Part shown: positions 6,690-27,587 of the stretch, in pieces
How the letters are laid out: every line of letters starts with the position of its first letter
How positions within the stretch are numbered: position 1 is the first letter of the stretch
Assembly: GCA_051954615.1 (NCBI GenBank)
Contig: JBQCHN010000096.1
Span: 17,030 to 81,029 of the forward strand
From: Mesorhizobium sp.
GTDB lineage: Bacteria > Pseudomonadota > Alphaproteobacteria > Rhizobiales > Rhizobiaceae
Direction of reading: 5' to 3'
DNA length: 64,000 nucleotides
The notes under the pieces: model-generated
The model's database searches: none
The model's input: only the letters and a program-made list of their open reading frames with translations
What the model was told of the DNA's origin: nothing
Program-made: the position numbers and the translations under genes

Positions 6690-7708
6690 TTTCCATCTTC
6701 AAGCCGCCAACCGACGGTCAGATACTTTCTGCCTTCGACGAGATGTTGATCTGCCACAAGAGAGCGCAACAGGCACAGTCAATATTTGACTCCCTGAGGG
6801 AGGCCAAACGCTTATCGCCAAACACGCCTAAGAATTGGGTCGCGCTCTTCGCTCCAAGCTTTAGCGGAAAAACCCGGGCCGTCATGCTCTACATGGAACG
6901 CGTGATAGATGACGCGATCGCATCGGGTCGCTTCCCGCCGGAAATGACAAGAAATGAAATCGGAAAGGCTCAGACCAAAGTCATCTACCTCTCCATTCCG
7001 TCATCGAACGTTACTCAGAAGACGGTAATCACGATGTTGCTCGCGCGGTTGGGCGATCCGCTACCGGACAAGGGGAATACCGGCCAGCAGTTACAGCGCC
7101 TCTATGAGTTGATGCATAAGCTCGGCGTGGAGTTGGTGATCCTGGACGAGATGCAGCACTTGAGCGCAGCGATGCGCGAAGGGGCGCGGTCGCGCTCGAA
7201 GGATGGTCAGTACGCTCCGATTCCATATTTGATCAAGACGCTCCTCGATAACGGCCATGTTCCGATAGTTTGCATCGGGATAACTGAAGGAAGGAGTCAC
7301 TTGATGAGCAACAATGAACTCAGAAATAGATGCTTTAAGGAGTTAGATTTCTTACCAATTAAACCAGATAGCATTGATATGCTGGAAGTACTCGCGAAAT
7401 ATTTTGGAATGCTTGCGAATAAAATTGTTGAATATGGGCTTTTCCCGGATGTTCCTGATTTTATTTCTGGCGAGATCCCGGATTGTTTTGTGGATGTGTC
7501 GGGCGGCAAGATCGGTGAAGCCACTATGTTGGCACGAAGCGCCTGCTGTTTCGCAGCTCATCGAGGAGCGCGTTGCGTGGAATATGAGGACCTCGAAGCC
7601 GCTACGGACGAGGCGATTGCTGCAGGTAAGGTCAAGATCAATTTTTTCCGTCTGCGCAGGGAGAAGAAGGAGAGGGAAAGGGAACGGGAACTGGAAATGG
7701 CGGGATGA
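6686..7708 (+). CDS. tnsC: TnsC/TniB-like AAA+ transposition ATPase
   Basis: Walker A APSFSGKTRAV and Walker B LVILDEMQHL. There is a 4-nt overlap with tnsB and with tniQ. Confidence 0.88.
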   Translation: MISIFKPPTDGQILSAFDEMLICHKRAQQAQSIFDSLREAKRLSPNTPKNWVALFAPSFSGKTRAVMLYMERVIDDAIASGRFPPEMTRNEIGKAQTKVIYLSIPSSNVTQKTVITMLLARLGDPLPDKGNTGQQLQRLYELMHKLGVELVILDEMQHLSAAMREGARSRSKDGQYAPIPYLIKTLLDNGHVPIVCIGITEGRSHLMSNNELRNRCFKELDFLPIKPDSIDMLEVLAKYFGMLANKIVEYGLFPDVPDFISGEIPDCFVDVSGGKIGEATMLARSACCFAAHRGARCVEYEDLEAATDEAIAAGKVKINFFRLRREKKERERERELEMAG

Positions 7709-12257: not shown

Positions 12258-12637
12258 TACTCGCTAGCTTTCGCTGCGACCTGATCAAATATGGCCACGA
12301 AATCTAGATTCCCGTTTCGGGCTTGAGCCGAAAGCTCATTGACACCCCACTCGGCCAGCCGTTCAATCAGCCTGTACGGAGTTATTTCGGCGACCTCTTC
12401 CGGCATTAGCATTTCAACGGAACGACGGAATGACTGGTCGGGGTCCAACGAGCCTATATTCAGAAATGGCGAACGGTCCGATAGCTCAGGCGGGATGACG
12501 CCTTGTGCCAGTGCGAGAGAAACCGCAAATCGAAAGCCGTCCATCTTTTCTGCGAAAATGCCGCTCTCTTTGAGGTCGTCGAGCTTGTCGTTTCCAGCCT
12601 TCGACAACCCAATCGTCACGATTTCCTGTTGGCTCAT
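12257..12637 (-). CDS. DndE-like small DNA-binding protein (126 aa)
   Basis: Size, position directly after a DndD-like gene, and the pattern LSKAGNDKLDDLKESGI...FRFAVSLALAQG...LDFVAIF resemble DndE. ATGA overlap with the upstream gene. Confidence 0.5.
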   Translation of the reverse strand: MSQQEIVTIGLSKAGNDKLDDLKESGIFAEKMDGFRFAVSLALAQGVIPPELSDRSPFLNIGSLDPDQSFRRSVEMLMPEEVAEITPYRLIERLAEWGVNELSAQARNGNLDFVAIFDQVAAKASE

Positions 12638-14619: not shown

Positions 14620-14623
14620 CTGA

Positions 14624-14827
14624 CTAGCTCTGCAGGTGGTCGAGCATGTTTTTGACGTGTACGTCTATGAGCCTCTCCATCTCTATCTGAGACGCGGAGC
14701 GATCGTCGCTAAACTGAAAGCGCTTTTGGACCTGATAGCATTGCTTCAACAGGAGATCATCGACCGTCGGTTCCGCCTCTTGGCGAACCGAAAGTAGAGT
14801 CTCTAGGGTCAGGTCTTCGTCTGACAT
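14624..14827 (-). CDS. 67-aa acidic hypothetical protein
   Basis: Wedged between the helicase (1-nt TAATG overlap) and the DndD-like gene (4-nt gap). I count 14 D/E against 7 K/R. Confidence 0.55.
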   Translation of the reverse strand: MSDEDLTLETLLSVRQEAEPTVDDLLLKQCYQVQKRFQFSDDRSASQIEMERLIDVHVKNMLDHLQS

Positions 14828-16920
14828 TATTCGTCCCCCTCTATTCCGGTATCGGTTAGCGTGTCAGGATCAATACCAAGCTCGATGGCAATAGCCCGCA
14901 ACTCCGCACCACCAGCGCGATTTAACGCATGAGATGAAAACTCGATCGAGCGAACAAGTTCTGCCTTAAGAAGACCCATCTGATCTGACTCGTCTTCGGC
15001 ATTTACGGGTACAACGATCGCGTCGTGAATCACTGCCAAGTCTTTCTCGGGCGATTTTCGAAGTACGCGACCTCTACGTTGTATGAACTGCCTTGGGTTT
15101 TGGGATGAGGCCAGGATGAGCGCATGCGAGATCGAGGGAATATCGACACCTTCGTCAAGGCAGCGAATTGACACTAAAACGCCTCCAAAAGTGCGGAACC
15201 ATGTCAGAGTTGCATTGCGATCGCCACTCATCGAAGAGTGATACTCTACGGCATCAATACCAGCGTCTTTCAGACTTCCGAGGACGACTCCCAATTGATC
15301 CGCGTCTTCACAATAGACCAGCCAACTCTGACCTTTCTCGAAATGATTTTTTAGAACGCTCACCGCCAGTGCCACCTTTGCAGTGGCCTTCTTGGCAACA
15401 CGTGATCGTTGGATCAATAACATCTTGGCTCGTTCCGAAACGGACTTTTTTCCGTTCGAATCAGTGGGTTGTCTCGCAATTTCTTGACGTATCGAATGGG
15501 TGATCTTGCTCCATTCTTCTGCTTCTGTTGCCGAAAGGTGCACCGGGTGAGGGAAATATTCATATGGGACCAAGCGCCCGGCATTAATCGCATCATTTAT
15601 GGTGATGGGTGGTGGAACGACTTCTCCGAAATACTGGAACATCCTTGCGGTCCCGTCTTGGTCACCAAATCGCTGGGGAGTTGCGCTCAGTCCAAGACGA
15701 GGGCCTGATGCGAGATTGTAGACATTCGAATTTCGACGGCTCCCTGATTGGTGCACCTCATCTGCTACAAGCATCAGGTGATCGCCGCCCCTTACCAAAT
15801 TCAGAAAATCCAAACTCGATGCGGTTTGCATGGTCGACAGCACGATCCTAGCACCGAGTGAGGGATCGGGGTCCGTCATGCTTTGAAGGCGTCCAGCTTT
15901 TTTCCACCCGTCGTTTCCGCCTCCAGCTAGCATCAGAGCCGCAGACGGAACTTCTTCGCGAAGCTCTTTGGCCCACTGCTCCAAAAGCAATTGACTTGGC
16001 ACCAACACCAACGACGGTAGGCCCAGACTCAAGTGCTTATTGAGAGCGGTAATAGCCGTAAAAGTCTTGCCACTCCCTGTCGCATGCTCAAAAATGCCAC
16101 GGCGGCCACTAGCTTCCCAACGACTGATTGCATCCATCTGATGGGGTAGTGGGGTGCGCTTGTCGCGAACTGGCTGCAATTGCAGTTCCGTCACGTCGTC
16201 CAACCCTTTCAGAGCGTGTTTCTGCAGACGTTCGATAGCAACGCTGGGAAATGGAAACACTTCCACGTCCCGGTCGGTTTGTGACCATAGTGAATCGAAA
16301 TGATTTTCATGGCGATTAACACGCTCAGCTTCCAATCCACCGCGCCAGCTGCAAAAAACTTCTATTGATTCAAAGTTACCGCTTGGGTCCCATGCGCTCC
16401 ACGTCTCGTTAGCCGATCCTTTGAACGAAACTCTGTTGCCCAAACCGTCCGAGAAAATGCCCAATTTTTCGTGATATAGCCCCTTTCGATCTGATCGAAA
16501 TGCGAGCTTTATCTCCAACGCATTTACGGCGACCAGGGTCGCTAGAATGCGTGCGTGTTGTTGAGTCGTTGGTTCCGATAAGAGCTGGTCGATTTGCTCA
16601 ACCAATCGTTGAGCGACGTGGCTGCTTCGTTTCGCGTAACCGAGCACGATCGAGTCGATGTCTGATGGATCAAGCTCAGGCGAACAAATCAGACATATTT
16701 TCCCTCCGCGACGTGCGAAGTCTACAACACTGCCCCCCGTGACGACGAAAACCGTCGAACGGAAATATCCTGCCGCGCGCTTGTAGGTATTTGAGTGCTG
16801 GAGACAGGGTCTGTAGAAGCTCGTTGCGGGCGTCTCTTTGATTGAGCGGTACTCTGTACGGAGATTGAGCACGGATAGATCGCCGAGAAATTCGTTACGG
16901 ATCGTGCTGCTCCCGGTCAT
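14827..16920 (-). CDS. PLD-family (single HKD) nuclease fused to SF2 DEAD/DEAH-type helicase; restriction-enzyme-like
   Basis: HKD motif YHEKLGIFSD..FKGSANETW. Helicase motifs HATGSGKTFTAI, LVADEVHQSG, LSATP and QRRGRVLR. Confidence 0.85.
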   Translation of the reverse strand: MTGSSTIRNEFLGDLSVLNLRTEYRSIKETPATSFYRPCLQHSNTYKRAAGYFRSTVFVVTGGSVVDFARRGGKICLICSPELDPSDIDSIVLGYAKRSSHVAQRLVEQIDQLLSEPTTQQHARILATLVAVNALEIKLAFRSDRKGLYHEKLGIFSDGLGNRVSFKGSANETWSAWDPSGNFESIEVFCSWRGGLEAERVNRHENHFDSLWSQTDRDVEVFPFPSVAIERLQKHALKGLDDVTELQLQPVRDKRTPLPHQMDAISRWEASGRRGIFEHATGSGKTFTAITALNKHLSLGLPSLVLVPSQLLLEQWAKELREEVPSAALMLAGGGNDGWKKAGRLQSMTDPDPSLGARIVLSTMQTASSLDFLNLVRGGDHLMLVADEVHQSGSRRNSNVYNLASGPRLGLSATPQRFGDQDGTARMFQYFGEVVPPPITINDAINAGRLVPYEYFPHPVHLSATEAEEWSKITHSIRQEIARQPTDSNGKKSVSERAKMLLIQRSRVAKKATAKVALAVSVLKNHFEKGQSWLVYCEDADQLGVVLGSLKDAGIDAVEYHSSMSGDRNATLTWFRTFGGVLVSIRCLDEGVDIPSISHALILASSQNPRQFIQRRGRVLRKSPEKDLAVIHDAIVVPVNAEDESDQMGLLKAELVRSIEFSSHALNRAGGAELRAIAIELGIDPDTLTDTGIEGDE

Positions 16921-16942
16921 GAAGTTACAGCCGCCCTCGATT

Positions 16943-18076
16943 CTACTCTGCGAGGGACCCGGTAAATTCAGAGAACCGACCTTGTGAACCCCTTACGTAG
17001 TCAGGATCGGCTTCAACTCCGATCCATTTGCGTCCCAACGCTTGCGCGACGGCCCCGGTGGTGTTCGATCCTGCGAAGGGATCGAGAACCAAGTCATTGG
17101 GCGATGTCAGAAACTGCACAAAGAACGCTGAGAGCATTGCTTGCATGCGAGCGGGATGGGCGGGAAGATTATGCGTTTTGCAATAGTCGCGATAGTTTGC
17201 GTCCCACTTGGTGCCTGAGAATTTCAGGAGCGCTTCGGGCGCATTGGTTTCATCGGCAAGTTCAAGCACATTCGCTGAAATCGCTCCACCATGATCCCTT
17301 AGAAAGCCTGTTTCAGAAATCACGTGCCCAGATGGTCGAGCACCAGGATTGTATTTGCCTGTTTTGAGCAGGCGCTTCATGTCTTTGCTGTAAGGCTTAA
17401 GGACGTTGCGGTTGTCGGCCTTAGGGTCCTTGGACTTCGACATCCACCAGACGTGTGTGAATGAGTCCTTTAACCTGACCCGCTTGACGTTCACCCATGC
17501 TGCGGGGCTAGGTAGCCGGGCTGGATTGTGGCAGATCACATGCTGACAGAGATACAGTCCGGCAGATTTTTTGATTTCAAGTAGAGCTTCGAGTGGAAGC
17601 GTAGACATCACTGGAGCCCCTTCTTCCCAAGCGTTCCCGATCTCGATAACAATCGAGCCGTCGTCCGTCAGAAGTTCGGCTAGTGGTTTTGCGAGGGCGC
17701 TCAGCCACTCTATGTACGCCTGCCCAGTTTCATTTCCATAGCGTTTCTTTCGAACGAGCGGAAAGGGCGGCGATGTTACTATCAGATTAACCTTGCCCTT
17801 CAGGTCCAGTAAGGCAGCGGAATGAAGCGCGTGCTCAATTCTGCCATGAAGCATGGTCCCCGAACCTGTTTGGTAGGCCTTGACTACGGGACCGACCACG
17901 TCCTCCGACGGACCCGTCTCACTGACGGGCGATATCAGATGCAAATGCGCATTGACGGATATCTGCTTGCCTTTCGCCGTGTCAGCGATGGCTTTGCCCT
18001 CGGCTTCTCGACCGTTTTTCTCGACGCAACGAGCTTTCCTCACCACGCGCCCATTTTTTTGCGCATGCTCATTCAA
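16943..18076 (-). CDS. beta-class N4-cytosine/N6-adenine DNA methyltransferase
   Basis: Motif IV IVTSPPFPL comes before motif I VLDPFAGSNTTGAVA. SPPF favours m4C, but this is not decisive. Confidence 0.85.
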   Translation of the reverse strand: MNEHAQKNGRVVRKARCVEKNGREAEGKAIADTAKGKQISVNAHLHLISPVSETGPSEDVVGPVVKAYQTGSGTMLHGRIEHALHSAALLDLKGKVNLIVTSPPFPLVRKKRYGNETGQAYIEWLSALAKPLAELLTDDGSIVIEIGNAWEEGAPVMSTLPLEALLEIKKSAGLYLCQHVICHNPARLPSPAAWVNVKRVRLKDSFTHVWWMSKSKDPKADNRNVLKPYSKDMKRLLKTGKYNPGARPSGHVISETGFLRDHGGAISANVLELADETNAPEALLKFSGTKWDANYRDYCKTHNLPAHPARMQAMLSAFFVQFLTSPNDLVLDPFAGSNTTGAVAQALGRKWIGVEADPDYVRGSQGRFSEFTGSLAE

Positions 18077-18293: not shown

Positions 18294-18419
18294 GATTATT
18301 GCGACAAGGCGGAAATCCGACGACGAGGGGCAATCAGGTATGTTTCTCGGATATTGGGTCAGTGAATTCGATGCTACCCGATCGTCTCGGGCGGATGAAA
18401 TTTTTGGTTGGAGATCGCC

Positions 18420-19193
18420 ATGGTGTCTGAAACTCGTTCACCTCGGCTTGCGGTTCTGATCGATGCAGACAACGCCTCGGCAAAGATCGCCGACGGCCTG
18501 TTCGAAGAGATCGCGAAGATCGGCGAGGCCAGTGTCCGGCGGATCTATGGCGACTTTTCGAGTACGCGCTCAAAGGCTTGGGCCGATATCCTATCGAAAC
18601 ATGCGATCATACCCCAACAGCAGTTCGCCTATACGACTGGCAAGAACGCCTCCGATATAACATTGGTGATCGATGCGATGGACCTGCTCCATAGCGGGCG
18701 GTTTGACGGTTTCTGTCTCGTCTCATCTGACAGCGACTTCACGCGGCTTGCTGCCCGAATCCGTGAGCAGGGCGTTGATGTCTTCGGTTTCGGGGAGCAG
18801 AAAACGCCTGAAAGTTTCCGTCAGGCCTGTCGCCGATTTATCTATACCGAGAATCTGCTGCCGTCTGCCCCTGCAAACGAACCAGAGGCCGCACCGAGCA
18901 CGAAGTCCCTGCAGCCACCGTCGGCGGCCGTGCCGATCATCCGGAAGGTCATCGCGCAGATGGAGAGCGAGGACGGTTGGGTTCCGCTCGGTGCGGTCGG
19001 CAATCAGCTCGCCAATCTGGCTTCCGATTTTGATCCCAGGACATTTGGCTTCCGCAAACTGAGTGATCTCGTGCGGAAAACGAATGCATTCGACATCGAG
19101 CATCCCGAAGGTGGCAGCATGCGGATTCGTATCAAGCCCGCCGGCAACCGACCCTCGACGACTAAATCAAAGGGACCGAGATCCAAGGGCTGA
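18420..19193 (+). CDS. NYN (LabA-like) ribonuclease-fold protein with C-terminal OST-HTH/LOTUS domain
   Basis: LAVLIDADNAS and FCLVSSDSDFTRLAARIREQG mark the NYN domain. The C-terminal segment GWVPLGAVGNQLA..FGFRKLSDLV is LOTUS-like. Confidence 0.8.
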   Translation: MVSETRSPRLAVLIDADNASAKIADGLFEEIAKIGEASVRRIYGDFSSTRSKAWADILSKHAIIPQQQFAYTTGKNASDITLVIDAMDLLHSGRFDGFCLVSSDSDFTRLAARIREQGVDVFGFGEQKTPESFRQACRRFIYTENLLPSAPANEPEAAPSTKSLQPPSAAVPIIRKVIAQMESEDGWVPLGAVGNQLANLASDFDPRTFGFRKLSDLVRKTNAFDIEHPEGGSMRIRIKPAGNRPSTTKSKGPRSKG

Positions 19194-19384: not shown

Positions 19385-19640
19385 TTAATCTTGAGCAGCG
19401 GCAACCAGGAAATCGGCGAGCCGCTGAGCCTCCGCGGATAGGGAAGTGCTTTCGCTGTAGCAGAGATAGTAACCTCGCTCCGTGTGCAGGACATCGCTGG
19501 TCAACGGGACAAGCCTCCCGGCCGTTAGTTCCGATTGTAACAGGGCAACACTACCTAATGCGATGCCATTACCTCGAATGGCTTCACCGATGGTCTGGGA
19601 ATAAGTGCTCATCGTTCTGACATTCCAGCCGTGATGGCGG
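19385..19640 (-). pseudogene. LysR-family regulator, C-terminal fragment only
   Basis: The fragment ends ...LTAGRLVPLTSDVLHTERGYYLCYSE..AQRLADFLVAAA, which is an effector-domain tail. There is no HTH and no matching upstream frame. Confidence 0.55.
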
Positions 19641-19880
19641 ACCCGCCGACCATTGATCGAGAAGACCGCCGGGACCCGCCTCATTGAACCGGTGAACCCA
19701 GTCACGCAATGTCTGGCGATCCATGCCGCCGATCCGTGCGGCATCGGCCCGGCTCATGCCGTCCACGACCGCAGCGAGCGACAACAGCCGGCTGCTTTGA
19801 CGCACATCCTTCGACGCCCGTGCAAGACGGCGAAGCTCGCCACCGGAATAGTCTCCACGCAACTTCACCGCTGAGCCCAT
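19584..19880 (-). pseudogene. IS630-family transposase, N-terminal about 85 codons only
   Basis: MGSAVKLRGDYSGGELRRLARASKDVRQSSRLLSLAAVVDGMSRADAARIGGMDRQTLRDWVHRFNEAGPGGL matches the IS630 HTH region. Similarity is lost after about aa 85. Confidence 0.7.
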
Positions 19881-19964: not shown

Positions 19965-20068
19965 TTAGTTGTCTAGATTGACAGGGAATTCCTGCCCGAC
20001 CGCTTTGGGGCGGCGGAGTTGGGAAAGCGGCCATTCGGCTGGCCGTCGTATTTCGACGGCAACGCGCC
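19965..20068. repeat. repeat family copy B (28-nt motif plus 78-nt extension)
   Basis: 19965-19992 matches 9703-9730 at 26/28. 19991-20068 matches 24368-24445 at 60/78 ungapped, by my own column count. Confidence 0.75.
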
Positions 20069-20166
20069 CTCATGCCCGCCATTGGCCCACCCTGCCTCGC
20101 GTCCCGAAAGCCGCCGTCGGCAAATTCAGCGCGAGTCCGGCTATATCGAACGTTAGCTAAGCGCCA

Positions 20167-21060
20167 TCACTTGCGGAATCGGGGAGTCCAGCTTTCGATC
20201 AGCGCGTCTTCGTCATCGTCTTCAGGCTCGGCCTCAGAGCGCATGCTGAGCGACTTGCACGTCAGAATCGTCAGAGTACGCCCGTACTGCCCAAGTCCGA
20301 CCACCTCTTCGGTGATGCGATAGTTGCCGCCGCCGCCCATCCAGTCACTCAACCGTCTCTGGCCCTCGTCGCGTTGACCTGTACGCACGTTCTCGGGGCT
20401 GGCATTAAACTGCGCCGTAATGGTGCCTGAGGGAACGCCGATGCCCTTTCGCAGGTAGGTCAGTCCCTTCGCCTGCTTGAGGCCATCAGACATGAAGCAC
20501 CAGTCAACGGCGTCGCCTGTCGTGCAGATGACTGCAACACCGTCTGATGTAAGGGTGCAGTATCGGATGGCGGTCGCCGTCAACGACGTTTCGCATTCTT
20601 TTCGCAGCGCCTCGACGCAGGCCAAGCCCGCATCCCGATCCGCAATCGCTTTCTTGAACGGCGCTTCCGGCATGAGAAGAGCGGCTGCGAAGTGATCCGC
20701 CTCTTGTTCAAAAGGATCACCTGACACGAAGCCCGCGCGTGATTGATGAACACCCGTCGTGAGCAGCGCTTCGGGGTGTCCTTCAATGAAGTAGTGTCCC
20801 AGCTCGTGGCTGATGCTGAACCTCTGAAAGCCACGGCTGGGAATGTTCGTTGCGTACATGATGCCGAAATCATCACCGGCTTTGATCAGCATACCCGAGA
20901 CGCCTGAAGCTGTGTCAGGCTTAGGCCGCACCATGATCCCCTTCGTGGCAGCGATTGCCTCGGGGTCGACCCACAGTCCTTCAACCTTCATCTGCCGAAG
21001 CACTGCATTGGCAGCAGCCTCAGCCAGAGTACGACGTGCGAGCCGCGGTTTCGTGTTCAT
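20167..21060 (-). CDS. ImmA/IrrE (M78) zinc metalloprotease, CapP-like
   Basis: HELGHYFIEGH motif. ATGA overlap with the upstream XRE gene. Confidence 0.85.
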   Translation of the reverse strand: MNTKPRLARRTLAEAAANAVLRQMKVEGLWVDPEAIAATKGIMVRPKPDTASGVSGMLIKAGDDFGIMYATNIPSRGFQRFSISHELGHYFIEGHPEALLTTGVHQSRAGFVSGDPFEQEADHFAAALLMPEAPFKKAIADRDAGLACVEALRKECETSLTATAIRYCTLTSDGVAVICTTGDAVDWCFMSDGLKQAKGLTYLRKGIGVPSGTITAQFNASPENVRTGQRDEGQRRLSDWMGGGGNYRITEEVVGLGQYGRTLTILTCKSLSMRSEAEPEDDDEDALIESWTPRFRK

Positions 21061-21410
21061 TCGCTTGCCTTCGTACCTCTCTGCTTGGCCAGGAGGCCCA
21101 CGAAATCCGTTGCGAGCTTCAGGTCTTCCTCGGTGAGCCTGCTCAGGTCGCGGTGAAGGCGGCCGACTGTTTCTGCTGAGGCCTGAGGCGTATCGGATCG
21201 ACCAAGCAAATAGTCGGTGGTCACATTGAGGGCCGAAGCCAAGGCTTTGAGATTGTCGAACGACGGTTTCCGCGGGCCCGACTCGAAATGAGACACCGAA
21301 GCAGCTGGAAGCCCGGCTTTGGCAGCAAGTTCGGCCTGATTCAGGCCACGGAGTTTGCGGGCGTCTTTGAGACGTTCTTTAAAAATATCAGTGGCTTGGG
21401 TTTCTGGCAT
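21057..21410 (-). CDS. XRE-family HTH repressor, CapH-like
   Basis: LRGLNQAELAAKAGLPAASVSHFESG. ATG 21410 is preceded by GGAAG, while the track start at 21506 adds an implausible His-rich leader. Confidence 0.8.
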   Translation of the reverse strand: MPETQATDIFKERLKDARKLRGLNQAELAAKAGLPAASVSHFESGPRKPSFDNLKALASALNVTTDYLLGRSDTPQASAETVGRLHRDLSRLTEEDLKLATDFVGLLAKQRGTKASE

Positions 21411-21431
21411 GGTGCTTCCGATATGGATAAC

Positions 21432-21475
21432 TTGACGTTTCCGCCATTCCGAGTCAACATCATGGTGATCATGGT
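21432..21475. promoter_or_regulatory. candidate operator in capH-like / Ubl-operon divergent promoter
   Basis: TTGAC (21432-21436) N16 GTCAA (21453-21457), followed by the tandem ATCATGGT GATCATGGT (21459-21475). Confidence 0.35.
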
Positions 21476-21484
21476 AATTATGCC

Positions 21485-21772
21485 ATGGCGGAATCGCATG
21501 GCGCAAGCCAGAAACCTATGGGGCCAAAGATGGCAAAGAATGACAGGTGTGTCGTCCGGCACGGCAACGACTGGGCGGTGAAGAAGGGCGGCGTGGCTGC
21601 ACCGGAAAGCATCCACCACAAGCAAAGTCGCGCCGAGCAGCAGGCGAAATCGATCGTACGTGATCTCGGAGGCGGGGAAGTTCGCATCCAGGTGCGCGAC
21701 GGAAAGTGGCGTGACTCTGACACTGTCGCCCCGGCGCATGATCCGTTTCCGCCACGCGACAAGAAACACTAA
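21485..21772 (+). CDS. DUF2188-family small protein (start may be ATG 21530)
   Basis: VVRHGNDWAVKKGG...QAKSIVRDLGGGEVRIQVRDGKWRDSDT..DPFPPRD is the typical DUF2188 pattern. Confidence 0.7.
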   Translation: MAESHGASQKPMGPKMAKNDRCVVRHGNDWAVKKGGVAAPESIHHKQSRAEQQAKSIVRDLGGGEVRIQVRDGKWRDSDTVAPAHDPFPPRDKKH

Positions 21773-21789
21773 CGAATAGGAGAAGAGAA

Positions 21790-22113
21790 ATGGCGAACAA
21801 CAATCAAGGTCAAGGTAGCGACAAGGGTGGCGGTCAAGGCGGTGGCAATCCCGGCCAAGGCGGTGGCGGCAACAACGAGATCACCATCCACATCGACAAG
21901 AAGCAGTTCAAGTCCGCGAGCCCCACGACCGGAGCGGCGCTCTACACGCTCGGCCAGGTCGCCGCGGGTTACGATCTGTGGCGCGAGGTTCACGGTAAGG
22001 GCGATGACGAACTTATCGCGAACAATGCCACACAGGTGATCCTGAAGAATGGTGACCACTTCTATACCGCACAGTCCTCGCTGAACCCGGGCGCTGGCCA
22101 TGTCAATGGCTGA
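21790..22113 (+). CDS. ubiquitin-like beta-grasp protein (multiubiquitin-family single domain) with Gly/Gln/Asn-rich N-tail, ends in Gly
   Basis: ITIHIDKKQFKS..TGAALYTLGQV...VILKNGDHFYT. The final codons read HVNG then stop. Overlaps the next gene by 14 nt. Confidence 0.75.
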   Translation: MANNNQGQGSDKGGGQGGGNPGQGGGGNNEITIHIDKKQFKSASPTTGAALYTLGQVAAGYDLWREVHGKGDDELIANNATQVILKNGDHFYTAQSSLNPGAGHVNG

Positions 22114-22495
22114 TGTAGAAGAACTCTTGCCGGAGGCTGATCGGGATTTTCTGGTCGCCGCCGGCTATGAGCACACGATCGAACGGGTCGGGAACCACGT
22201 CCATATCGTCATCAAGAATTTCCCGTTGCCACGTTACAAGCCGCAGAGCGCTGATCTGCTGATCAGGGTGAAGAACGGTTACCCGAATGCGAAGCTGGAT
22301 ATGTTCTGGACGTATCCAGACGTGTCGCTACCAAGTGGCGGCGTCCCGCTAAAAGCAGACGTTCATGAGCAATACGGGGGCCGCAATTGGCAGCGTTGGT
22401 CCCGGCATATCGCCGACGGAAAATGGCGTCCGGGTGTCGATAACTTGCGGTCGTATCTCACGACGGTGAAAACAGAGCTGGCGAAGGGGGTTTGA
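22100..22495 (+). CDS. prokaryotic E2/UBC-fold protein (family-E-like), contains no cysteine
   Basis: HIVIKNFPLP..YKPQSADLLIRVKNGYPNAKLDMFW is an E2-like core. None of the 131 residues is Cys. Confidence 0.7.
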   Translation: MSMADVEELLPEADRDFLVAAGYEHTIERVGNHVHIVIKNFPLPRYKPQSADLLIRVKNGYPNAKLDMFWTYPDVSLPSGGVPLKADVHEQYGGRNWQRWSRHIADGKWRPGVDNLRSYLTTVKTELAKGV

Positions 22496-23874
22496 TGCGC
22501 TACTCCGTCACCTTTCTCGAGCATGATTACGAGGTCTTGGAAAAACATTTGGCGGCCACTACCGATGAGCAGGCCGCGTTTTTGATTTGTAGGATTGCGC
22601 AGACCGAAGGCGAGACCAGGCTTTTGGTCCGGGAGTTGTTGCCGGTGACCGGCGAAGACGTCATCGAGCAGTCTCCTGTCCACATGGAGATCGCGCCGCG
22701 CGCCTACACACGCGCCATGAAGCACGCCAATGACGAAAAATCCTGCCTTCTCTTCGTCCACTCCCATCCGAACGGCTACGCGGATCATTCCGCTCAGGAC
22801 GACGTCGAGGACGCAAAACTCTTCAAGACCGCTTATACGCGTATTCGCACGCCTGGCGTTCATGGGTCGTTGGTGCTCACACCGCAAGGACTCTCCGGTG
22901 CGCGCGTTTGGCTGCCGGATGGAGCGAGCGCTTCGATCGAACGCATTCGTATTGTTGGCAGACGCGTGAGGTTTTGGTTTTCACAGCAGGGCGCGACCGA
23001 AATCCCCACATTCTTCGATCGTCAAGTCCGGGCTTTTGGCCCAGACATTCAGCGCCTGTTATCGCGCCTGCGGGTTGGCATTGTCGGCCTTGGCGGCACT
23101 GGATCTTCCGTCCTTGAACAACTTATCCGCCTTGGAGTCGGCACGATCTACATCTCCGACGGAGAGCGTTTTGAATCCTCGAATGTGAACCGCGTCTACG
23201 GGTCCCGCGTCATCGATGACACGCTCCCCAAAATCAAGATCGCACAGCGCCTGGCGGCGGAGATTGGATTAGGCACGAAGGTCGAGCTCATTGATAAGCC
23301 GATCTCATATCAATCTGCGCTCAAGACACTCCGGGATTGCGATATTGTATTCGGCTGCACGGATGACGAGCTTGGTCGTTCGCTCCTGAACACCTTCGCT
23401 ATCTACTACTACATCCCGGTCTTTGACATGGGCGTCAAAATCGACTCCGACGAGGGTGTTATTCGGTCCATCAATGGGCGGGTCACAACGCTGGTTAATG
23501 GAGCCGCCTGCTTGCATTGCCGGGGCAGAGTTTCTGCCGAACGCATCGCAGCTCAGGCCGAATGGGAAGCTGACCCCGAGGGCGCGCAGGCCCTTCACGA
23601 TGAAGGCTATCTGCCGGAACTCGGGGACCCTGCTCCGGCTGTGGTGGCTTTCACAACCACGGTCGCAGCAAGTGCAGTGTCCGAATTTCTGCACCGTCTC
23701 ACCGGCTTTATGGGACCGGAGCGCGAAAGCACGGAAGTCTTGCACCTGATCGACCAAACGTTGGTTCGGACCAATCGGGTTGCCTCGCAGCATGATTGCT
23801 TCTGCGCGGATAAGTACCATTGGGGTCGCGGCGATGTGCGCCCTTTCCTCGACACGACATGGCGGGCTGAATGA
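22492..23874 (+). CDS. JAB/JAMM peptidase fused to ThiF/E1-like adenylyltransferase
   Basis: JAMM motif HSHPNGYADHSAQD. E1 nucleotide loop VGIVGLGGTGSSVLEQL. Cys pairs CLHC and CFC. Confidence 0.88.
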   Translation: MMRYSVTFLEHDYEVLEKHLAATTDEQAAFLICRIAQTEGETRLLVRELLPVTGEDVIEQSPVHMEIAPRAYTRAMKHANDEKSCLLFVHSHPNGYADHSAQDDVEDAKLFKTAYTRIRTPGVHGSLVLTPQGLSGARVWLPDGASASIERIRIVGRRVRFWFSQQGATEIPTFFDRQVRAFGPDIQRLLSRLRVGIVGLGGTGSSVLEQLIRLGVGTIYISDGERFESSNVNRVYGSRVIDDTLPKIKIAQRLAAEIGLGTKVELIDKPISYQSALKTLRDCDIVFGCTDDELGRSLLNTFAIYYYIPVFDMGVKIDSDEGVIRSINGRVTTLVNGAACLHCRGRVSAERIAAQAEWEADPEGAQALHDEGYLPELGDPAPAVVAFTTTVAASAVSEFLHRLTGFMGPERESTEVLHLIDQTLVRTNRVASQHDCFCADKYHWGRGDVRPFLDTTWRAE

Positions 23875-24206
23875 AGAAACTGATTGCCTATCTCAGACGT
23901 CTTTGGCTTCGGTTTCGTCGCCGTCATGAGATCGCATCGATTGTTCAGGTCAGCAGTCGCTCGGAGCTTCCCACTAAACTAGGGACCTCTCTCTACCTCG
24001 TTGGCGATCCACCGAAATGGGCAGTCCTAAAATGCCCTTGCGGTTGTGGTGACACAATCGACGTCAACCTCATGAAGGTGCGCAGTCCTGCCTGGCAGTT
24101 ATCGGTTGTCGACGGGAAAGTGAGCTTTCATCCGTCTTTATGGATGCCCAAAGACAAATGCGGTGCGCATTTCTGGATCAAAAATGGGAAGATTACCTGG
24201 GTTTGA
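23871..24206 (+). CDS. DUF6527-like small Cys-cluster (probable zinc-binding) protein
   Basis: LKCPCGCGDTIDVNL...KDKCGAHFWIKNGKITW. 4-nt overlap with the E1 gene. Confidence 0.7.
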   Translation: MKKLIAYLRRLWLRFRRRHEIASIVQVSSRSELPTKLGTSLYLVGDPPKWAVLKCPCGCGDTIDVNLMKVRSPAWQLSVVDGKVSFHPSLWMPKDKCGAHFWIKNGKITWV

Positions 24207-24332
24207 CTTTTATAACGGTATGACGTGCGGTCGCAGCGGATCCCTGATTGGCGCAGCGTAGATCTGCTCGTGAACAGAAGCGGGACAGTCTGCTGTCGGC
24301 CCCCAAAATGGCCAAATGAATCCAGGGCGAGA

Positions 24333-24869: not shown

Positions 24870-27587
24870 TCACCAATTTTTCCCGTAGGAAAGATCCTTG
24901 TGGTTCAGAAGATTTGGAAGTTCAGGCCCCTGACATGTGAGGCCGAGGAAGGTCGCGGCGCGCGTTGCGCCGACGTAGATATACCGATCAAAAAGGTCAG
25001 GCTGTTCGGCATAGAGGCGATCGACATCAATGAAGAACACCGCCTCGAATTCGAGCCCCTTGATATGTTCGATCGGGAAAACTCTGACATCGTGCGTCTG
25101 ACCTATCGCCTCGCCCTCTGAATAGGCTTTGGCCATGAGGCTCATGTCGGACAATTCAGTGTTAAGCGCTTCGGTCAGCGAATTCAGCGCGCTGCGGTTT
25201 GGAACAAGAACGGCAATAGTAGGTAGCTTGCCGTCGGTAGCGCGCTCAATTTCAGCTATCCGCGCCTTGAGCCAGCGCGCCCGCTCAGCATCAGAACCAA
25301 GGGACAAGCCCAGCACCGGATCAAAACCCAGGTTGTCGATAAACTCAGGAGGGCGATCGTCGACTTCAGCGCCCTGGAGGCGCGCAAGTGTGCGGGCAAA
25401 ATCGCCCAGCTTTTGGCTCTGGCGGTAGCTGATGGAAATTCGGTGTATGTCGAGCGTGGGAGCAAACCATTTCAGATCGGCTTCCGTACGGCTACCCCAA
25501 CGCGTGAGCCGTTGGTTGAAGTCGCCAGAAAGAAACAACGATCCGACTTCTAGCCGAGCAAGCTCGGCCATGCACGCGAGTTGCACGGGCGAGAAATCTG
25601 TTGCCTCGTCTACCAAGACTTGGTTGCGTCGCAAGCGTGAAATGGCATCCAGAAGTGCCGGGCGGTTCTCAGACAGTCTTGCGGAGAGCACGCGATTGGA
25701 TTCGATGAAATTTGCCGCCCTCAGCAATGCCAGCATGATCACGTCAACTTCCGCGGGGTGCACATGGGCAGCGGCACTGGAACCTGAACCGTACCATTTG
25801 CCTTCCGCGCGCATTGCGCGCCTGAAGCGCTGGTAGCGGGTAGGCATTCGCTGCAGATAGGTGGCTGGTGCGTTGCCGAGGCGGCTTGCCGCGCGCTGTA
25901 CCAGTAGGACGTTTCCTACTTCTCTAAGGTCTGGCGTATCCAATCCTCTCTCGGAAAGGAATACCAGAATTCGGCCGGCGCGGCTGCCGCCGGCTGGTTT
26001 ACTGCCAGTAGTTTGCCGAATGGCTAGCGTGCGCATTGCGCGGCGGAAAATCTCCACTACCAGTCTCCGCCCCTGCGGAGTGCGCCCAGAGCCTTCCGTT
26101 TCGACGGACTCGTCGTCAACGTCATCATCTTCGCCATCGACCTCGGGCTCTTCGGGCGATTGTTGCTGCAAGGCATCGACAAACCTGGCAAGTGCGTCCA
26201 GGAAGCCCGGATCGCGGACAGCAAAGGCACGGATCGGATAGTCCAGATCCTTGCGGGTCCTATCCCCCAGCGATGACGCCAGTTGTCCCAGCTCTCTGCG
26301 GAGGCCTGCGAGCTCAGCCAGCAATCTGATGACGTTGTCGCCGGAGCGCTGAAGTGTGTGAGAGACCTGCCGACCGAGCTCTTTTGCTCTCGCGTCGGTC
26401 GCTTTGGTCAAACGTTCTGCTTCCGTCTCCATTTGCTGGACGAAATTTCGCGCCTGCCAGCTGTTGAAGTCTTCGAACCAGGCCCGGTGGTTGAGCAGAG
26501 TATCTGGTACCAAATGATCGTCGTGGGCGTCGCGATCCATCACCAGACCGCCGCCAGCGCCGCGCCTGAGAATCCCCAGCTCGTTCCTAGCAGTTGCGAA
26601 ACGGAATGCCTCCCAGGTACGAAGGCGTTCGTCGTGCGCCGGTACGCCCTCTCGCCCCAGCGCCTCCTTGACATAGAGGCGCAATAGCTCTGTTGGCGTG
26701 AACAGGATCCAACTATTCGCGTGAGACCTTCCCGCCTCGTCGACCTCTTTCGCCAGTTCCTGTTCTTCTTCGTCGAGATATGCGAAGTCGAGCTTTTGCC
26801 GGAGTCGCCGGACCATCGTGGTGGTCTTTCCGGTTCCAGGCGGTCCCATCACAGCGATTTTGCTGTCGATCGGCAGACGGAATATCTCGTCCTGGAAGCG
26901 GTCGAGAATCGGGGCCACGCGGAGTTGCATTGCCGTCAGCACCCCGCGCGTGATGCCTACCGTAATATCCTCACCGTCAGTCTCTCCGAGCCACGGGGCT
27001 AGGGCATCGATCTCGTCATCGGCGACGCCGTCTTCCCGCAGCAGATCTCGCAGGGACCTGATCGTCAGCGGCGGCGCGCTTTCGCGAAAGTGTATTGCGG
27101 GCTGAGAATCCCACCCATCGCCGAGCTCCACCGCGCTGAAAGTCATCTTTTCGCGGATCAGGAAACTGTGCGTTGCCGCAGGCAACTTAACCTCTGCGTC
27201 CTCACCGACGCCGAAGGTGGCAAGTCGTCCCTTTGGTGCCATATAGCTGCACAGACGCACTTTGCCTGCACCGACTGTTTGGGCCGGCGAAATGTAAAGG
27301 GTCTCAAGCTTCTGATCTTCGTCTTCGATGACAAGGCGAGCTATTGCCGGCTCACGACGCAATCGTTGGAGATTGGCAACCGTGTCTGCGTTGCGCTGGT
27401 GCAAGTTGGAAACAAGCGCGTCGTAGGTAGCCGCGTTCACGCTGGCGAACGATTCCAAGGTTACCCCTTGGCTCTGTAGCCCGGCCTGTGCGTGAGCGGA
27501 AATCTCTCCAAAGCTGTCGAGCACTTCTCGTGCAGTGTTCCGCAGAGCGTTCCGATCGAACTCTTCATTCGTCCTGTCCACCCCCAT
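24870..27587 (-). CDS. UvrD/HelD-like SF1 helicase with GreA/B-C-like N-terminal domain
   Basis: Walker A VMGPPGTGKTTT, VLVDEATDFSP, and C-terminal GLEFEAVFF..YVGATRAATFLGL. The N-terminal SYMAPKGRLATFGVGEDAEVKLP resembles the Gre C-domain. Confidence 0.8.
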   Translation of the reverse strand: MGVDRTNEEFDRNALRNTAREVLDSFGEISAHAQAGLQSQGVTLESFASVNAATYDALVSNLHQRNADTVANLQRLRREPAIARLVIEDEDQKLETLYISPAQTVGAGKVRLCSYMAPKGRLATFGVGEDAEVKLPAATHSFLIREKMTFSAVELGDGWDSQPAIHFRESAPPLTIRSLRDLLREDGVADDEIDALAPWLGETDGEDITVGITRGVLTAMQLRVAPILDRFQDEIFRLPIDSKIAVMGPPGTGKTTTMVRRLRQKLDFAYLDEEEQELAKEVDEAGRSHANSWILFTPTELLRLYVKEALGREGVPAHDERLRTWEAFRFATARNELGILRRGAGGGLVMDRDAHDDHLVPDTLLNHRAWFEDFNSWQARNFVQQMETEAERLTKATDARAKELGRQVSHTLQRSGDNVIRLLAELAGLRRELGQLASSLGDRTRKDLDYPIRAFAVRDPGFLDALARFVDALQQQSPEEPEVDGEDDDVDDESVETEGSGRTPQGRRLVVEIFRRAMRTLAIRQTTGSKPAGGSRAGRILVFLSERGLDTPDLREVGNVLLVQRAASRLGNAPATYLQRMPTRYQRFRRAMRAEGKWYGSGSSAAAHVHPAEVDVIMLALLRAANFIESNRVLSARLSENRPALLDAISRLRRNQVLVDEATDFSPVQLACMAELARLEVGSLFLSGDFNQRLTRWGSRTEADLKWFAPTLDIHRISISYRQSQKLGDFARTLARLQGAEVDDRPPEFIDNLGFDPVLGLSLGSDAERARWLKARIAEIERATDGKLPTIAVLVPNRSALNSLTEALNTELSDMSLMAKAYSEGEAIGQTHDVRVFPIEHIKGLEFEAVFFIDVDRLYAEQPDLFDRYIYVGATRAATFLGLTCQGPELPNLLNHKDLSYGKNW

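What the first reader, a model, noticed from the sequence alone, without database searches (positions are those of the whole stretch)
20167..24206. CapH/CapP-like regulated ubiquitin-like conjugation operon (Ubl, E2-like, JAB-E1 fusion, DUF6527-like protein)
**Seen.**
- An M78/ImmA-type protease (HELGHY) overlaps an XRE repressor by ATGA.
- Divergently, 21485-24206 encodes DUF2188, a 107-aa beta-grasp protein ending in Gly and a 131-aa E2-fold protein.
- It continues with a 460-aa JAMM (HSHPNGYADHSAQD) plus ThiF/E1 (GLGGTGS; CLHC, CFC) fusion and a 111-aa Cys-cluster protein.
- The junctions from the Ubl gene through the DUF6527-like gene overlap by 14, 4 and 4 nt.

**Established.**
- This gene set corresponds to the computationally defined prokaryotic multiubiquitin/E2/JAB-E1 operon class.
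- The related Bil (ISG15-like) operons are antiphage.
- CapH/CapP pairs de-repress CBASS and other defence operons after DNA damage.

**Inference.** This is a damage- or infection-inducible Ubl-conjugation defence module. I know of no defined target or mechanism for this JAB-E1-fused, Cys-less-E2 class.
Basis: partly seen in the sequence, partly recalled or inferred. Interest (0 to 1): 0.8.

Follow-up and report, generated by a model that had tools for sequence, protein, structure and literature searches.

The report
CapH/CapP-controlled Type I Bub ubiquitin-like operon
This is an intact copy of a recently described bacterial ubiquitin-like protein-tagging operon (Type I "Bub"), placed behind a DNA-damage-sensing switch; the gene set is real and correctly read, but the class and its chemistry are already published, so this is a new member rather than a new system.

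Summary
All seven ORFs exist as described, and profile searches confirm them: CapP (2.9e-62), CapH (1e-24), DUF2188, a beta-grasp Ubl, Prok-E2_E (1.9e-30), Prok-JAB+ThiF and DUF6527.

This gene set is the "6E.1/DUF6527" class, now called Type I Bub (Ye, Gong, Chambers and Corbett, bioRxiv 2024). Its best solved-structure matches are Citrobacter BubCD and BubB. Every published catalytic residue is present and invariant in 21-22 relatives:
- JAMM: E26, H90, H92, D103.
- E1: R234 and crossover-loop Y373.
- E2: D67, S101, H103.
- BubE: S89, H100 and the Cys4 cluster.

The published mechanism uses Tyr and Ser oxyester intermediates, with DUF6527 acting as a Ser-His protease. The target and the biological role are still unknown.

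One correction: the terminal Gly107 is coincidental. The conserved glycine is G101 in an invariant LNPG motif, followed by a variable 0-14 residue tail, so BubA is probably a pro-Ubl trimmed by the JAB domain.

The separate Ubl and E2 genes are a common, already catalogued subtype. The ~4 kb cassette is mobile and sits in a defence island. DUF2188 is a widespread first gene behind CapH/CapP or CapW regulators with varied cargo.

The parts
20167..21060 (-). capP: ImmA/IrrE-type Zn metallopeptidase (HELGH at residues 85-89), 297 aa. It has no cysteine-switch loop.
   Evidence: PADLOC capP 2.9e-62, full length. Pfam Peptidase_M78 1e-11. The only PDB sequence hit is Thauera CapP 7t5t, 6.4e-10; the position of the switch Cys aligns to Thr.
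21057..21410 (-). capH: XRE-family HTH repressor, 117 aa from the ATG at 21410. It overlaps capP by ATGA.
   Evidence: PADLOC capH 1e-24 over profile positions 4-101 of 103. HTH_3 1.5e-17. PDB hits include ImmR, the CapH HTH domain 7t5u and DdrO. Gene callers give 115-116 aa in relatives.
21411..21529 (.). Divergent regulatory region. Inverted repeat CGTTTCCGCCAT (21436-21447) and ATGGCGGAATCG (21485-21496), with a third copy at 21498-21506. A -35-like TTGACG lies at 21432-21437, with CAACAT 17 nt downstream. This is the candidate CapH operator overlapping the operon promoter.
   Evidence: Inverted repeat, 12 nt, 92% complementary. Both arms are invariant in five cassettes whose proteins are 61-97% identical. 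Three copies lie within 68 bp, against 28 in the whole window on both strands. The motif is replaced by a different inverted repeat in loci where DUF2188 follows CapW instead of CapH. The promoter hexamers are hand-picked and fall below the scan threshold.
21530..21772 (+). DUF2188 gene, 80 aa, first gene of the operon. Function unknown.
   Evidence: Pfam DUF2188 6.3e-14; PADLOC PDC-S16 3e-14. Present in the same position in L001, L017-L022. 746 relatives found.
21790..22113 (+). bubA: pro-Ubl of 107 aa. Residues 1-29 are a Gly/Gln/Asn-rich disordered tail and residues 30-101 form a single beta-grasp. The conserved LNPG ends at G101 (codon 22090-22092). AGHVNG (22093-22110) is a variable C-terminal tail.
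   Evidence: AlphaFold2 pLDDT is about 90 for residues 30-100. Foldseek top hits are bacterial multi-ubiquitin/BubA structures 8u38, 9d5b, 9cd2, 9d5a, rmsd about 2 A. L98, P100 and G101 are invariant and the tails vary.
22100..22495 (+). bubB: Cys-less E2, 131 aa, with D67, S101 and H103.
   Evidence: Prok-E2_E 1.9e-30. The only PDB hits are Citrobacter BubB chains (best 9eae_C, 3.8e-10), with D299/S333/H335 aligned. D and H are invariant in 21 of 21 homologues and S in 20 of 21.
22492..23874 (+). bubCD: JAB/JAMM peptidase fused to a ThiF-type E1, 460 aa from the TTG at 22492 (459 aa from the ATG at 22495). JAMM residues E26, H90, H92, D103. Nucleotide loop GLGGTGS. R234. Crossover-loop Y373. 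Predicted structural Zn site C340/C343/C436/C438.
   Evidence: ThiF 2.8e-32 and Prok-JAB 3e-8. Best PDB hit Citrobacter BubCD 9ea4, 5.8e-38. All six published catalytic residues align and are invariant in 22 of 22 homologues. There is no Cys in the crossover loop.
23871..24206 (+). bubE: DUF6527 protein, 111 aa. Cys cluster C55/C57/C59/C97, S89-H100 dyad, and a basic/hydrophobic N-terminal extension.
   Evidence: DUF6527 1.3e-21. S89 and H100 are invariant in 21 of 21 homologues and the cysteines in 18-21 of 21. The pattern matches published BubE (C57/59/61/99, S92, H102).

Best explanation
This is a complete, intact Type I Bub (bacterial ubiquitination-like, formerly 6E.1/DUF6527) operon of the subtype with separate Ubl and E2 genes. 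It is preceded by a DUF2188 gene and controlled by a divergent CapH/CapP pair.

Proposed mechanism:
1. CapH binds the TTCCGCCAT / ATGGCGGAA repeats that overlap the divergent promoters and keeps the operon off.
2. DNA damage or infection produces single-stranded DNA, which activates the CapP metallopeptidase. CapP cleaves CapH and transcription starts.
3. BubA is made as a pro-Ubl. The JAB domain of BubCD removes the six-residue tail and exposes G101.
4. The E1 domain adenylates G101 and takes it onto Tyr373 of its crossover loop as an oxyester.
5. BubA passes to Ser101 of BubB (assisted by His103 and Asp67) and then to lysines of target proteins.
6. BubE, a zinc-stabilised Ser89-His100 protease, removes BubA from targets.

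What is shown here: gene content, family membership, conservation of every catalytic residue, the conserved operator-like repeats, the conserved Gly with a variable tail, and the mobility of the cassette.

What is inferred: all chemistry is taken from the Citrobacter homologue, and induction from E. coli and Thauera CapH/CapP. The tail trimming is my own inference. The target and the benefit to the cell (antiphage or general stress response) are unknown for the whole family.
For: - Profile and structure-sequence matches for all components.
- Published mechanism of the family.
- One-to-one alignment of E28/H91/H93/D104/R227/Y370 and D299/S333/H335 to the window proteins, and their invariance in 21-22 homologues.
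- The BubA model is a beta-grasp closest to solved BubA/multi-ubiquitin structures.
- LNPG is invariant with non-conserved tails in 109 of 112 homologues.
- Fused relatives carry the same SLNPG followed by a linker and the E2. This is the site type that BubC cleaves in Citrobacter BubAB.
- Table S1 of the Bub paper already lists Type I operons with separate Ubl and E2 genes plus CapP/CapH in Mesorhizobium, Bradyrhizobium and Rhizobium.
- The operator-like repeats are conserved and switch with regulator type.
- Tight coupling of the genes.
- The cassette recurs in unrelated flanks and lies beside PbeA/PbeC, a methyltransferase and transposition genes.
Against: - Identity to the characterised Citrobacter proteins is low, and the BubCD alignment covers residues 13-407 only, so the chemistry is transferred across a long distance.
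- This clade keeps a CxxC...CxC cluster next to the crossover loop that the Citrobacter enzyme lacks. A cysteine-based step is unlikely but not formally excluded.
- No sigma-70 consensus promoter or downstream terminator passed the scan thresholds.
- Three of 112 BubA homologues have no tail. The published data suggest the JAB domain mainly cleaves BubAB fusions, so its role with a separate BubA is untested.
- No Bub operon has yet shown phage protection.
Confidence: 0.8

Rival explanations
1. Same machinery, but its role is a general DNA-damage or stress-response protein modification of host proteins rather than antiphage defence.
For: The authors of the family could not find any Bub operon that protects E. 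coli from phage. A 2026 paper still says protection has not been demonstrated and raises a global stress-response role. The regulators respond to DNA damage as such.
Against: The cassette is mobile and sits among PbeA/PbeC, a methyltransferase, a NYN protein and a UvrD-like helicase next to transposition genes. The same DUF2188-led layout carries TIR and Qat-like cargo elsewhere. Related Bil systems are antiphage.
Confidence: 0.3
2. BubA is used as encoded: the terminal Gly107 is adenylated and conjugated without processing. The JAB domain then acts only as a deconjugase.
For: The ORF does end in Gly directly before the stop. A few relatives also end in G after a tail.
Against: The 93%-identical relative ends ...NPGADHVSD. 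Tail length and sequence are not conserved, while L98, P100 and G101 are invariant. Fused relatives continue straight from SLNPG into a linker and the E2.
Confidence: 0.07
3. bubA and bubB are the two halves of a BubAB fusion gene broken by a frameshift, either a pseudogene or an assembly error.
For: The paper's text defines Type I by a BubAB fusion. Deleting one T at 22111 would fuse the two frames.
Against: All but one of the 89 BubB homologues (87 of 89 at 122-141 aa, one 92-aa fragment) and 105 of the best 150 representatives are standalone E2 proteins. 112 standalone BubA homologues exist. The split is present in loci down to about 30% identity and is listed in Table S1.
Confidence: 0.02
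4. A ThiS/MoaD-type sulfur-carrier or cofactor biosynthesis module.
For: The E1 domain hits ThiF/MoeB models, and the clade keeps the MoeB-like Cys4 site.
Against: All ThiF/MoeB NCBIfam scores are far below their cut-offs (for example 59.8 against 275 bits). An E2, a JAB domain and BubE are present. No thiamine or molybdopterin genes are adjacent. The best structural relatives are BubCD, BubB and BubA.
Confidence: 0.01

Closest known systems
Type I Bub operon of Citrobacter sp. RHBSTW-00271 (BubAB, BubCD, BubE; PDB 9ea4, 9eae, 9eav)
   Same: JAB-E1 fusion, Prok-E2_E type E2 and DUF6527 protein in the same order. All published catalytic residues are conserved.
   Different: - Here the Ubl and the E2 are separate overlapping genes.
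- The Ubl has one beta-grasp with a short Gly/Gln/Asn-rich N-terminus rather than three beta-grasp domains.
- The E1 keeps a CxxC...CxC cluster that Citrobacter lacks.
- CapH/CapP and DUF2188 lie upstream.
Type I Bub operons listed as 'DUB+E1 fusion' only in Table S1 of Ye et al. (e.g. Mesorhizobium sp. LSHC422A00, Rhizobium phaseoli, Bradyrhizobium yuanmingense, Hyphomicrobium denitrificans)
   Same: Separate Ubl and E2 genes, JAB-E1, DUF6527, often with CapP and CapH. In several entries the gene numbering leaves room for one extra gene between CapH and the Ubl.
   Different: No difference is evident; this is the subtype the window belongs to. The paper's text does not discuss this subtype, its Ubl tail or the extra gene.
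Type II Bub operons (BubA, BubBD, BubE; E. coli ZDHYS365)
   Same: Tyr/Ser oxyester chemistry, BubE, and a multi-ubiquitin type Ubl.
   Different: Type II fuses the E2 to the E1 and lacks a JAB domain. Its E2 uses Ser with Lys and His.
Bil (bacterial ISG15-like) Type I/II operons
   Same: A Ubl, E2, JAB and E1 working together in a mobile defence-type operon.
   Different: [quoted passage not shown] It has no DUF6527.
CapH/CapP of CBASS (E. coli MS115-1, Thauera sp. K11)
   Same: Divergent HTH repressor plus M78 metallopeptidase upstream of the cargo operon. CapP matches over its full length.
   Different: No cysteine-switch loop, which only 33% of CBASS CapP proteins have. The cargo is Bub and the operator sequence is different.
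DUF2188-led operons behind CapW/BrxR or CapH/CapP (Lau et al. 2022; PADLOC PDC-S16)
   Same: The same 80-aa protein (73-76% identical) is the first gene after the regulator.
   Different: The cargo there is TIR proteins or Qat-like genes, and the regulator is a WYL protein.

Membership tests
Type I Bub (6E.1 / DUF6527) operon | JAB/JAMM peptidase fused to a ThiF-type E1, with JAMM Glu, HxH and Asp, the adenylation Arg, and an invariant crossover-loop Tyr instead of Cys | tested here: met
   Pfam Prok-JAB plus ThiF. Best PDB hit BubCD, 5.8e-38. E26/H90/H92/D103/R234/Y373 align and are invariant; there is no Cys in the loop.
Type I Bub (6E.1 / DUF6527) operon | Prok-E2_E type E2 with Ser-x-His plus Asp in place of the catalytic Cys | tested here: met
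   Prok-E2_E 1.9e-30. The only PDB hits are Citrobacter BubB chains. D67/S101/H103 are conserved. All 150 best representatives checked appear to keep S-x-H (118 match S[RK]H; the 15 of 32 others displayed read SWH).
Type I Bub (6E.1 / DUF6527) operon | DUF6527/BubE protein with a Cys4 cluster and a Ser-His dyad | tested here: met
   DUF6527 1.3e-21. C55/57/59/97, S89 and H100 are conserved.
Type I Bub (6E.1 / DUF6527) operon | Beta-grasp Ubl with a conserved glycine that becomes the C-terminus | tested here: met
   The model and the Foldseek hits to BubA structures. G101 is invariant in LNPG. The Pfam Multi_ubiq match itself is below threshold.
Type I Bub (6E.1 / DUF6527) operon | Ubl encoded as a fusion to the E2 (BubAB), as stated in the paper's text | tested here: not met
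   The two genes are separate, overlapping ORFs in different frames. The paper's own Table S1 files operons with separate Ubl and E2 genes under Type I. Standalone E2 proteins are the majority among close relatives. The fusion is therefore not a true defining feature.
Type I Bub (6E.1 / DUF6527) operon | ATP-dependent conjugation through Tyr and Ser oxyester intermediates; BubE peptidase activity | not testable with these tools
   This needs biochemistry. It is inferred from the Citrobacter system.
CapH/CapP regulator pair | HTH repressor and M78 Zn-metallopeptidase genes together, upstream of and divergent from the regulated operon | tested here: met
   Orientation and ATGA overlap. PADLOC capH 1e-24 and capP 2.9e-62. 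HELGH motif. PDB 7t5t is the only CapP hit.
CapH/CapP regulator pair | Repressor binding site in the promoter region of the cargo operon | tested here: inconclusive
   A conserved inverted repeat overlaps a -35-like element and changes with regulator type. No binding data are available and no consensus promoter passed the scan.
CapH/CapP regulator pair | ssDNA-stimulated cleavage of CapH by CapP; induction by DNA damage | not testable with these tools
   Known for the E. coli MS115-1 system.
Bil (ISG15-like) operons | [quoted passage not shown] | tested here: not met
   There is a single adenylation domain fused to the JAB, no catalytic Cys in the E1 loop or the E2, and DUF6527 is present.
ThiS/MoaD-ThiF/MoeB sulfur-carrier pathways | E1 reaching the ThiF/MoeB family cut-offs, with cofactor biosynthesis neighbours | tested here: not met
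   The best NCBIfam ThiF score is 59.8 bits against a cut-off of 275. The neighbours are defence and mobile-element genes.

The most novel reading that the evidence does not exclude
The 80-aa DUF2188 protein may not be part of Bub. It may instead be a conserved leader gene that travels with DNA-damage-responsive regulators (CapH/CapP here, CapW/BrxR elsewhere) in front of interchangeable cargo such as Bub, TIR systems or Qat-like genes. Under this reading it has its own role in sensing or in setting the threshold or feedback of de-repression. A smaller second point is that split Type I Bub operons make a pro-Ubl whose vestigial linker tail still needs JAB trimming, which would explain why the JAB domain is retained without a BubAB fusion.
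Probability: 0.25. Interest if true: 0.5.

Novelty: new member of a known kind. Interest (0 to 1): 0.25.

Why it matters
For the genome scan, this locus can be annotated with confidence as capP, capH, a DUF2188 gene and bubA, bubB, bubCD, bubE. It does not need to be flagged as an unknown system.

For the field it adds three modest points.
- The subtype with separate Ubl and E2 genes is at least as common as the fused form among close relatives, and its Ubl carries a variable tail after an invariant LNPG. This predicts a processing role for the JAB domain even without a fusion.
- A candidate CapH operator is defined by conservation and by its replacement in CapW-controlled loci.
- DUF2188 emerges as a highly conserved first gene shared by different regulators and cargos.

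The large open questions are what Bub modifies and whether it defends against phage. This locus does not bring either question closer than the systems already under study.

Tried and rejected
Led nowhere:
- Pfam on full-length BubA gave no hit, and the core gave only Multi_ubiq E=0.014, below the cut-off.
- A PDB sequence search with BubA gave only noise.
- NCBIfam has no Bub-specific hits.
- The AlphaFold model of DUF2188 (three strands, a helix, two strands; pLDDT 78) has no significant PDB match. The best match is E=0.1 to MutS fragments, and it shows no resemblance to YegP/DUF1508.
- The sigma-70 promoter scan found nothing, and there is no terminator on the + strand after bubE.
- No tRNA genes are in the window, so no tRNA insertion site can be called.
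- The plasmid collection holds only partial capP/capH-like matches and no Bub cassette at the blastn level.

Considered and rejected:
- A frameshifted BubAB pseudogene, because the split is conserved in more than 100 relatives.
- A sulfur-carrier pathway.
- Bil.
- Type II Bub, because there is no E2-E1 fusion.
- CBASS-type Cap2/Cap3, because the PADLOC E1-E2 hits at 1e-10 or weaker cover only the adenylation domain.
- The DUF2188 start at 21485, because the upstream stretch has a 1-nt indel between close relatives and matches the non-coding operator block.

Full report

Profile searches confirm each domain assignment:

| Coordinates | Assignment | Scores |
|---|---|---|
| 20167-21060 (-) | M78 peptidase, CapP | PADLOC capP 2.9e-62 over the whole profile |
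| 21057-21506 (-) | XRE HTH, CapH | PADLOC capH 1e-24 |
| 21485-21772 (+) | DUF2188 | 6.3e-14; PADLOC candidate PDC-S16 |
| 22100-22495 (+) | Prok-E2_E | 1.9e-30 |
| 22492-23874 (+) | Prok-JAB plus ThiF | 3e-8 and 2.8e-32 |
| 23871-24206 (+) | DUF6527 | 1.3e-21 |

The 107-aa protein is the only component without a profile hit. Its core reaches only E=0.014 against Multi_ubiq. An AlphaFold2 model built on 33 homologues gives a confident beta-grasp for residues 30-100. The best PDB matches of that model are the solved bacterial multi-ubiquitin/BubA proteins 8u38, 9d5b, 9cd2 and 9d5a, at about 2 A rmsd.

The overlaps were read directly from the sequence:
- capP/capH overlap by ATGA.
- bubA/bubB overlap by 14 nt.
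- bubCD/bubE overlap by ATGA.
- bubB/bubCD overlap by 4 nt only if the TTG at 22492 is the start. The ATG at 22495 gives a 1-nt TGATG overlap and matches the 459-aa calls in relatives.

Two starts should be moved. capH most likely starts at 21410 (117 aa) and DUF2188 at 21530 (80 aa). The stretch between them aligns as non-coding DNA, with a 1-nt indel between close relatives.

**What it is.** The gene set is the class formerly called 6E.1 or "DUF6527 operons". It was renamed Type I Bub by Ye, Gong, Chambers and Corbett (bioRxiv 10.1101/2024.11.21.623953).

That work solved Citrobacter BubCD alone and bound to BubA and BubB. It reported the following:
- The JAB domain cleaves after a conserved Gly of the Ubl.
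- Conjugation needs a crossover-loop Tyr on the E1 and a Ser (with His and Asp) on the E2.
- DUF6527 (BubE) is a zinc-dependent Ser-His protease that removes conjugates.
- 168 of 544 Bub operons (31%) carry CapH+CapP.

In the PDB sequence search, the window's JAB-E1 hits Citrobacter BubCD first (5.8e-38). The next hits are ThiF/MoeB-like proteins at 1e-9 or weaker. The E2 hits only Citrobacter BubB.

Using those alignments, the published residues map one-to-one onto the window proteins:

| Citrobacter residue | Window residue |
|---|---|
| BubCD E28, H91, H93, D104 | E26, H90, H92, D103 |
| BubCD R227, Y370 | R234, Y373 |
| BubB D299, S333, H335 | D67, S101, H103 |

I extracted the homologous proteins from 24 fetched loci. 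Every one of these positions is invariant in 21-22 distinct sequences. So are BubE S89 and H100, and the BubE cysteines are nearly so. The crossover loop contains no cysteine.

This locus has everything needed to use it.

**The split Ubl and E2.** The paper's text says all Type I operons encode a BubAB fusion, whereas here the two are separate genes in different frames. This is neither an error nor a novelty.
- All but one of the 89 homologues of the E2 are standalone proteins: 87 are 122-141 aa, one is a 92-aa fragment, and one weak hit of 213 aa may be fused.
- 112 standalone Ubl homologues of 73-152 aa exist.
- Among the 150 best representatives in an exhaustive search (613 hits in total), 105 are standalone and 42 are fused.
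- The paper's own Table S1 files operons with separate Ubl and E2 genes under Type I. These come from Mesorhizobium, Bradyrhizobium, Rhizobium phaseoli, Hyphomicrobium and others, many with CapP and CapH.

**The C-terminal glycine.** That is literally true, but it is not the functional glycine.
- The 93%-identical Ubl of Mesorhizobium hunchu ends ...NPGADHVSD.
- In 109 of 112 homologues an LNPG motif is followed by a tail of 0-14 residues, mostly 1-6, with no sequence conservation.
- In a 33-sequence alignment, L98, P100 and G101 are invariant.
- Fused relatives of the same clade read ...SLNPG, then a short linker, then the E2. That is the arrangement that Citrobacter BubC cleaves after its conserved Gly.

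I therefore propose that BubA here is a pro-Ubl and that G101 (codon 22090-22092) is the residue that is adenylated. The AGHVNG tail would be a remnant of the linker, trimmed by the JAB domain. This also explains why the split operons keep that domain. It is an inference and was not tested.

**Regulation.** CapP's only solved relative is Thauera CapP (7t5t). The HELGH motif aligns with it. The cysteine-switch position is a Thr here, so this CapP belongs to the majority without a switch.

The 119-bp region between capH and DUF2188 contains a 12-nt inverted repeat, CGTTTCCGCCAT ... ATGGCGGAATCG, plus a third copy. Three copies fall within 68 bp, against 28 in the whole 64-kb window on both strands. 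Both arms are invariant across five cassettes whose proteins are only 61-97% identical. The left arm overlaps a conserved TTGACG that could serve as a -35 element.

When the same DUF2188 gene follows a CapW/BrxR regulator instead of CapH, the intergenic region carries a different inverted repeat, TATAGAAACTA ... TAGTTTCT. This is what is expected if the repeats are regulator-specific operators.

The consensus promoter scan found nothing at its threshold, so the promoter hexamers I name are weak candidates only.

**Module limits and context.** Nucleotide similarity to the Bradyrhizobium and Hyphomicrobiales copies and to a metagenomic copy spans exactly 20183-24202. Similarity to M. hunchu spans 19988-24300. 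The flanks are unrelated in every case. The unit that moves is therefore the ~4-kb cassette capP-capH-DUF2188-bubA-bubB-bubCD-bubE.

The neighbours in the window are as follows:
- To the left, a transposase fragment and a LysR fragment.
- Further left, a NYN-LOTUS protein and a DNA methyltransferase.
- PbeA (1e-211) and PbeC (6e-290).
- An 841-aa protein with sigma-70 region 4 and RNA polymerase alpha-CTD motifs.
- rve/TniB transposition genes.
- To the right, a convergent 905-aa UvrD/HelD-like helicase, followed by ordinary regulators and ABC transporters.

G+C content rises from 0.51-0.57 in the left 20 kb to about 0.60 beyond 32 kb. The operon thus lies in a transposon-associated defence island, as reported for other Bub operons. 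Exact protein matches point to a Mesorhizobium sp. metagenome-assembled genome as the source.

**DUF2188.** This gene is in every CapH/CapP-linked cassette of the Rhizobiales clade. It is absent from more distant Bub loci that lack CapH/CapP.

It is much more widespread and more conserved than the Bub genes, with 746 hits and the best 120 at 69% identity or more. In all four further contexts I looked up, the same 80-aa gene (73-76% identical) is the first gene after a divergent CapW/BrxR regulator. The cargo there is TIR proteins or a Qat-like set.

Its link to HTH-peptidase regulators was noted before by Lau et al. 2022, who cite Burroughs and Aravind 2020. Its predicted fold has no significant solved relative. 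I treat it as a leader gene tied to the regulators rather than to Bub, with unknown function.

**Alternatives.**
- A sulfur-carrier pathway is excluded. ThiF/MoeB scores are far below their cut-offs, and an E2, a JAB domain and BubE are present.
- Bil is excluded by the single-domain E1, the Cys-less E2 and the presence of BubE.
- A frameshifted pseudogene is excluded by the conservation of the split.
- A general DNA-damage response, rather than antiphage defence, cannot be excluded. No Bub operon has been shown to protect against phage, and this was restated in 2026.

**Verdict.** The system is a new member of a known, recently characterised kind. Its catalogued subtype even includes the same regulators in the same bacterial genera. 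Interest is low to moderate. What remains unknown (the target, the biological role and the function of DUF2188) is unknown for the whole family, not for this locus in particular.

Noticed in passing
window 21530-21772; L025-L028 at 5001-5243: The 80-aa DUF2188 protein has 746 relatives, the best 120 at 69% identity or more. In four of four other contexts it is the first gene after a divergent CapW/BrxR (WYL) regulator, followed by TIR_2 proteins or a KAP-NTPase/QatB/QueC/TatD set. It looks like a leader gene shared by different regulators and cargos.
   Followed up: partly
window 9732-18076 (- strand): PbeA (14827-16920, PADLOC 1e-211) and PbeC (12634-14619, 6e-290) lie with a 126-aa ORF, an 841-aa protein carrying sigma-70 region 4 and RNA polymerase alpha-CTD motifs (9732-12257), and an N6/N4 DNA methyltransferase (16943-18076). 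This looks like a Pbe-type defence system with no dnd modification genes seen nearby.
   Followed up: partly
window 4401-9714: Transposition genes: a 762-aa protein with an rve integrase core, a TniB-like AAA protein, and a 669-aa ORF without family hits. This suggests a Tn7/Tn5053-like element bordering the island.
   Followed up: no
window 18408-19193: NYN ribonuclease domain fused to an OST-HTH/LOTUS domain (1e-37 and 5e-17), standing alone between the methyltransferase and the Bub cassette.
   Followed up: no
window 19385-19880: Short ORFs with a transposase-type HTH (HTH_29/28) and the C-terminal part of a LysR substrate-binding domain. These are gene fragments at the left edge of the cassette, close to where similarity to M. 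hunchu begins (19988).
   Followed up: no
window 24870-27587 (- strand); L026 8241-10243: A 905-aa UvrD/HelD-like helicase with a long insert lies convergent to bubE. A UvrD-like gene of similar size also follows the DUF2188-TIR operon in Mesorhizobium sp. Root552. It is not part of the conserved cassette.
   Followed up: no
window BubCD residues 340, 343, 436, 438; L007, L011-L015: The clade containing the window keeps a CxxC...CxC cluster (a MoeB/ThiF-like zinc site) beside the crossover loop. The Citrobacter-like clade has SxxS at the first pair. The catalytic Tyr is invariant in both.
   Followed up: partly
L005 7380-7706 and L006 7373-7678: In two distant relatives (a Peribacteria MAG and an Acidobacteriota MAG) the bubE homologue lies on the opposite strand, directly after bubCD.
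   Followed up: no
L017 379-2825, L018 380-2670, L022 607-2897: Next to capP in the Bradyrhizobium and metagenomic cassettes there is a conserved pair: an AAA_18 plus adenylosuccinate-synthetase-like protein (532-584 aa) and a DUF7002 protein. This may be another defence-type module. It is absent from the window.
   Followed up: no
window 1-64000: G+C is 0.51-0.57 across 1-20 kb and about 0.60-0.66 from 32 kb onward, where the genes are ordinary (ABC transporters, xanthine-dehydrogenase-like subunits, amidase, acyl-CoA enzymes, and an autotransporter at 56698-60027). This is consistent with a horizontally acquired island on the left.
   Followed up: no
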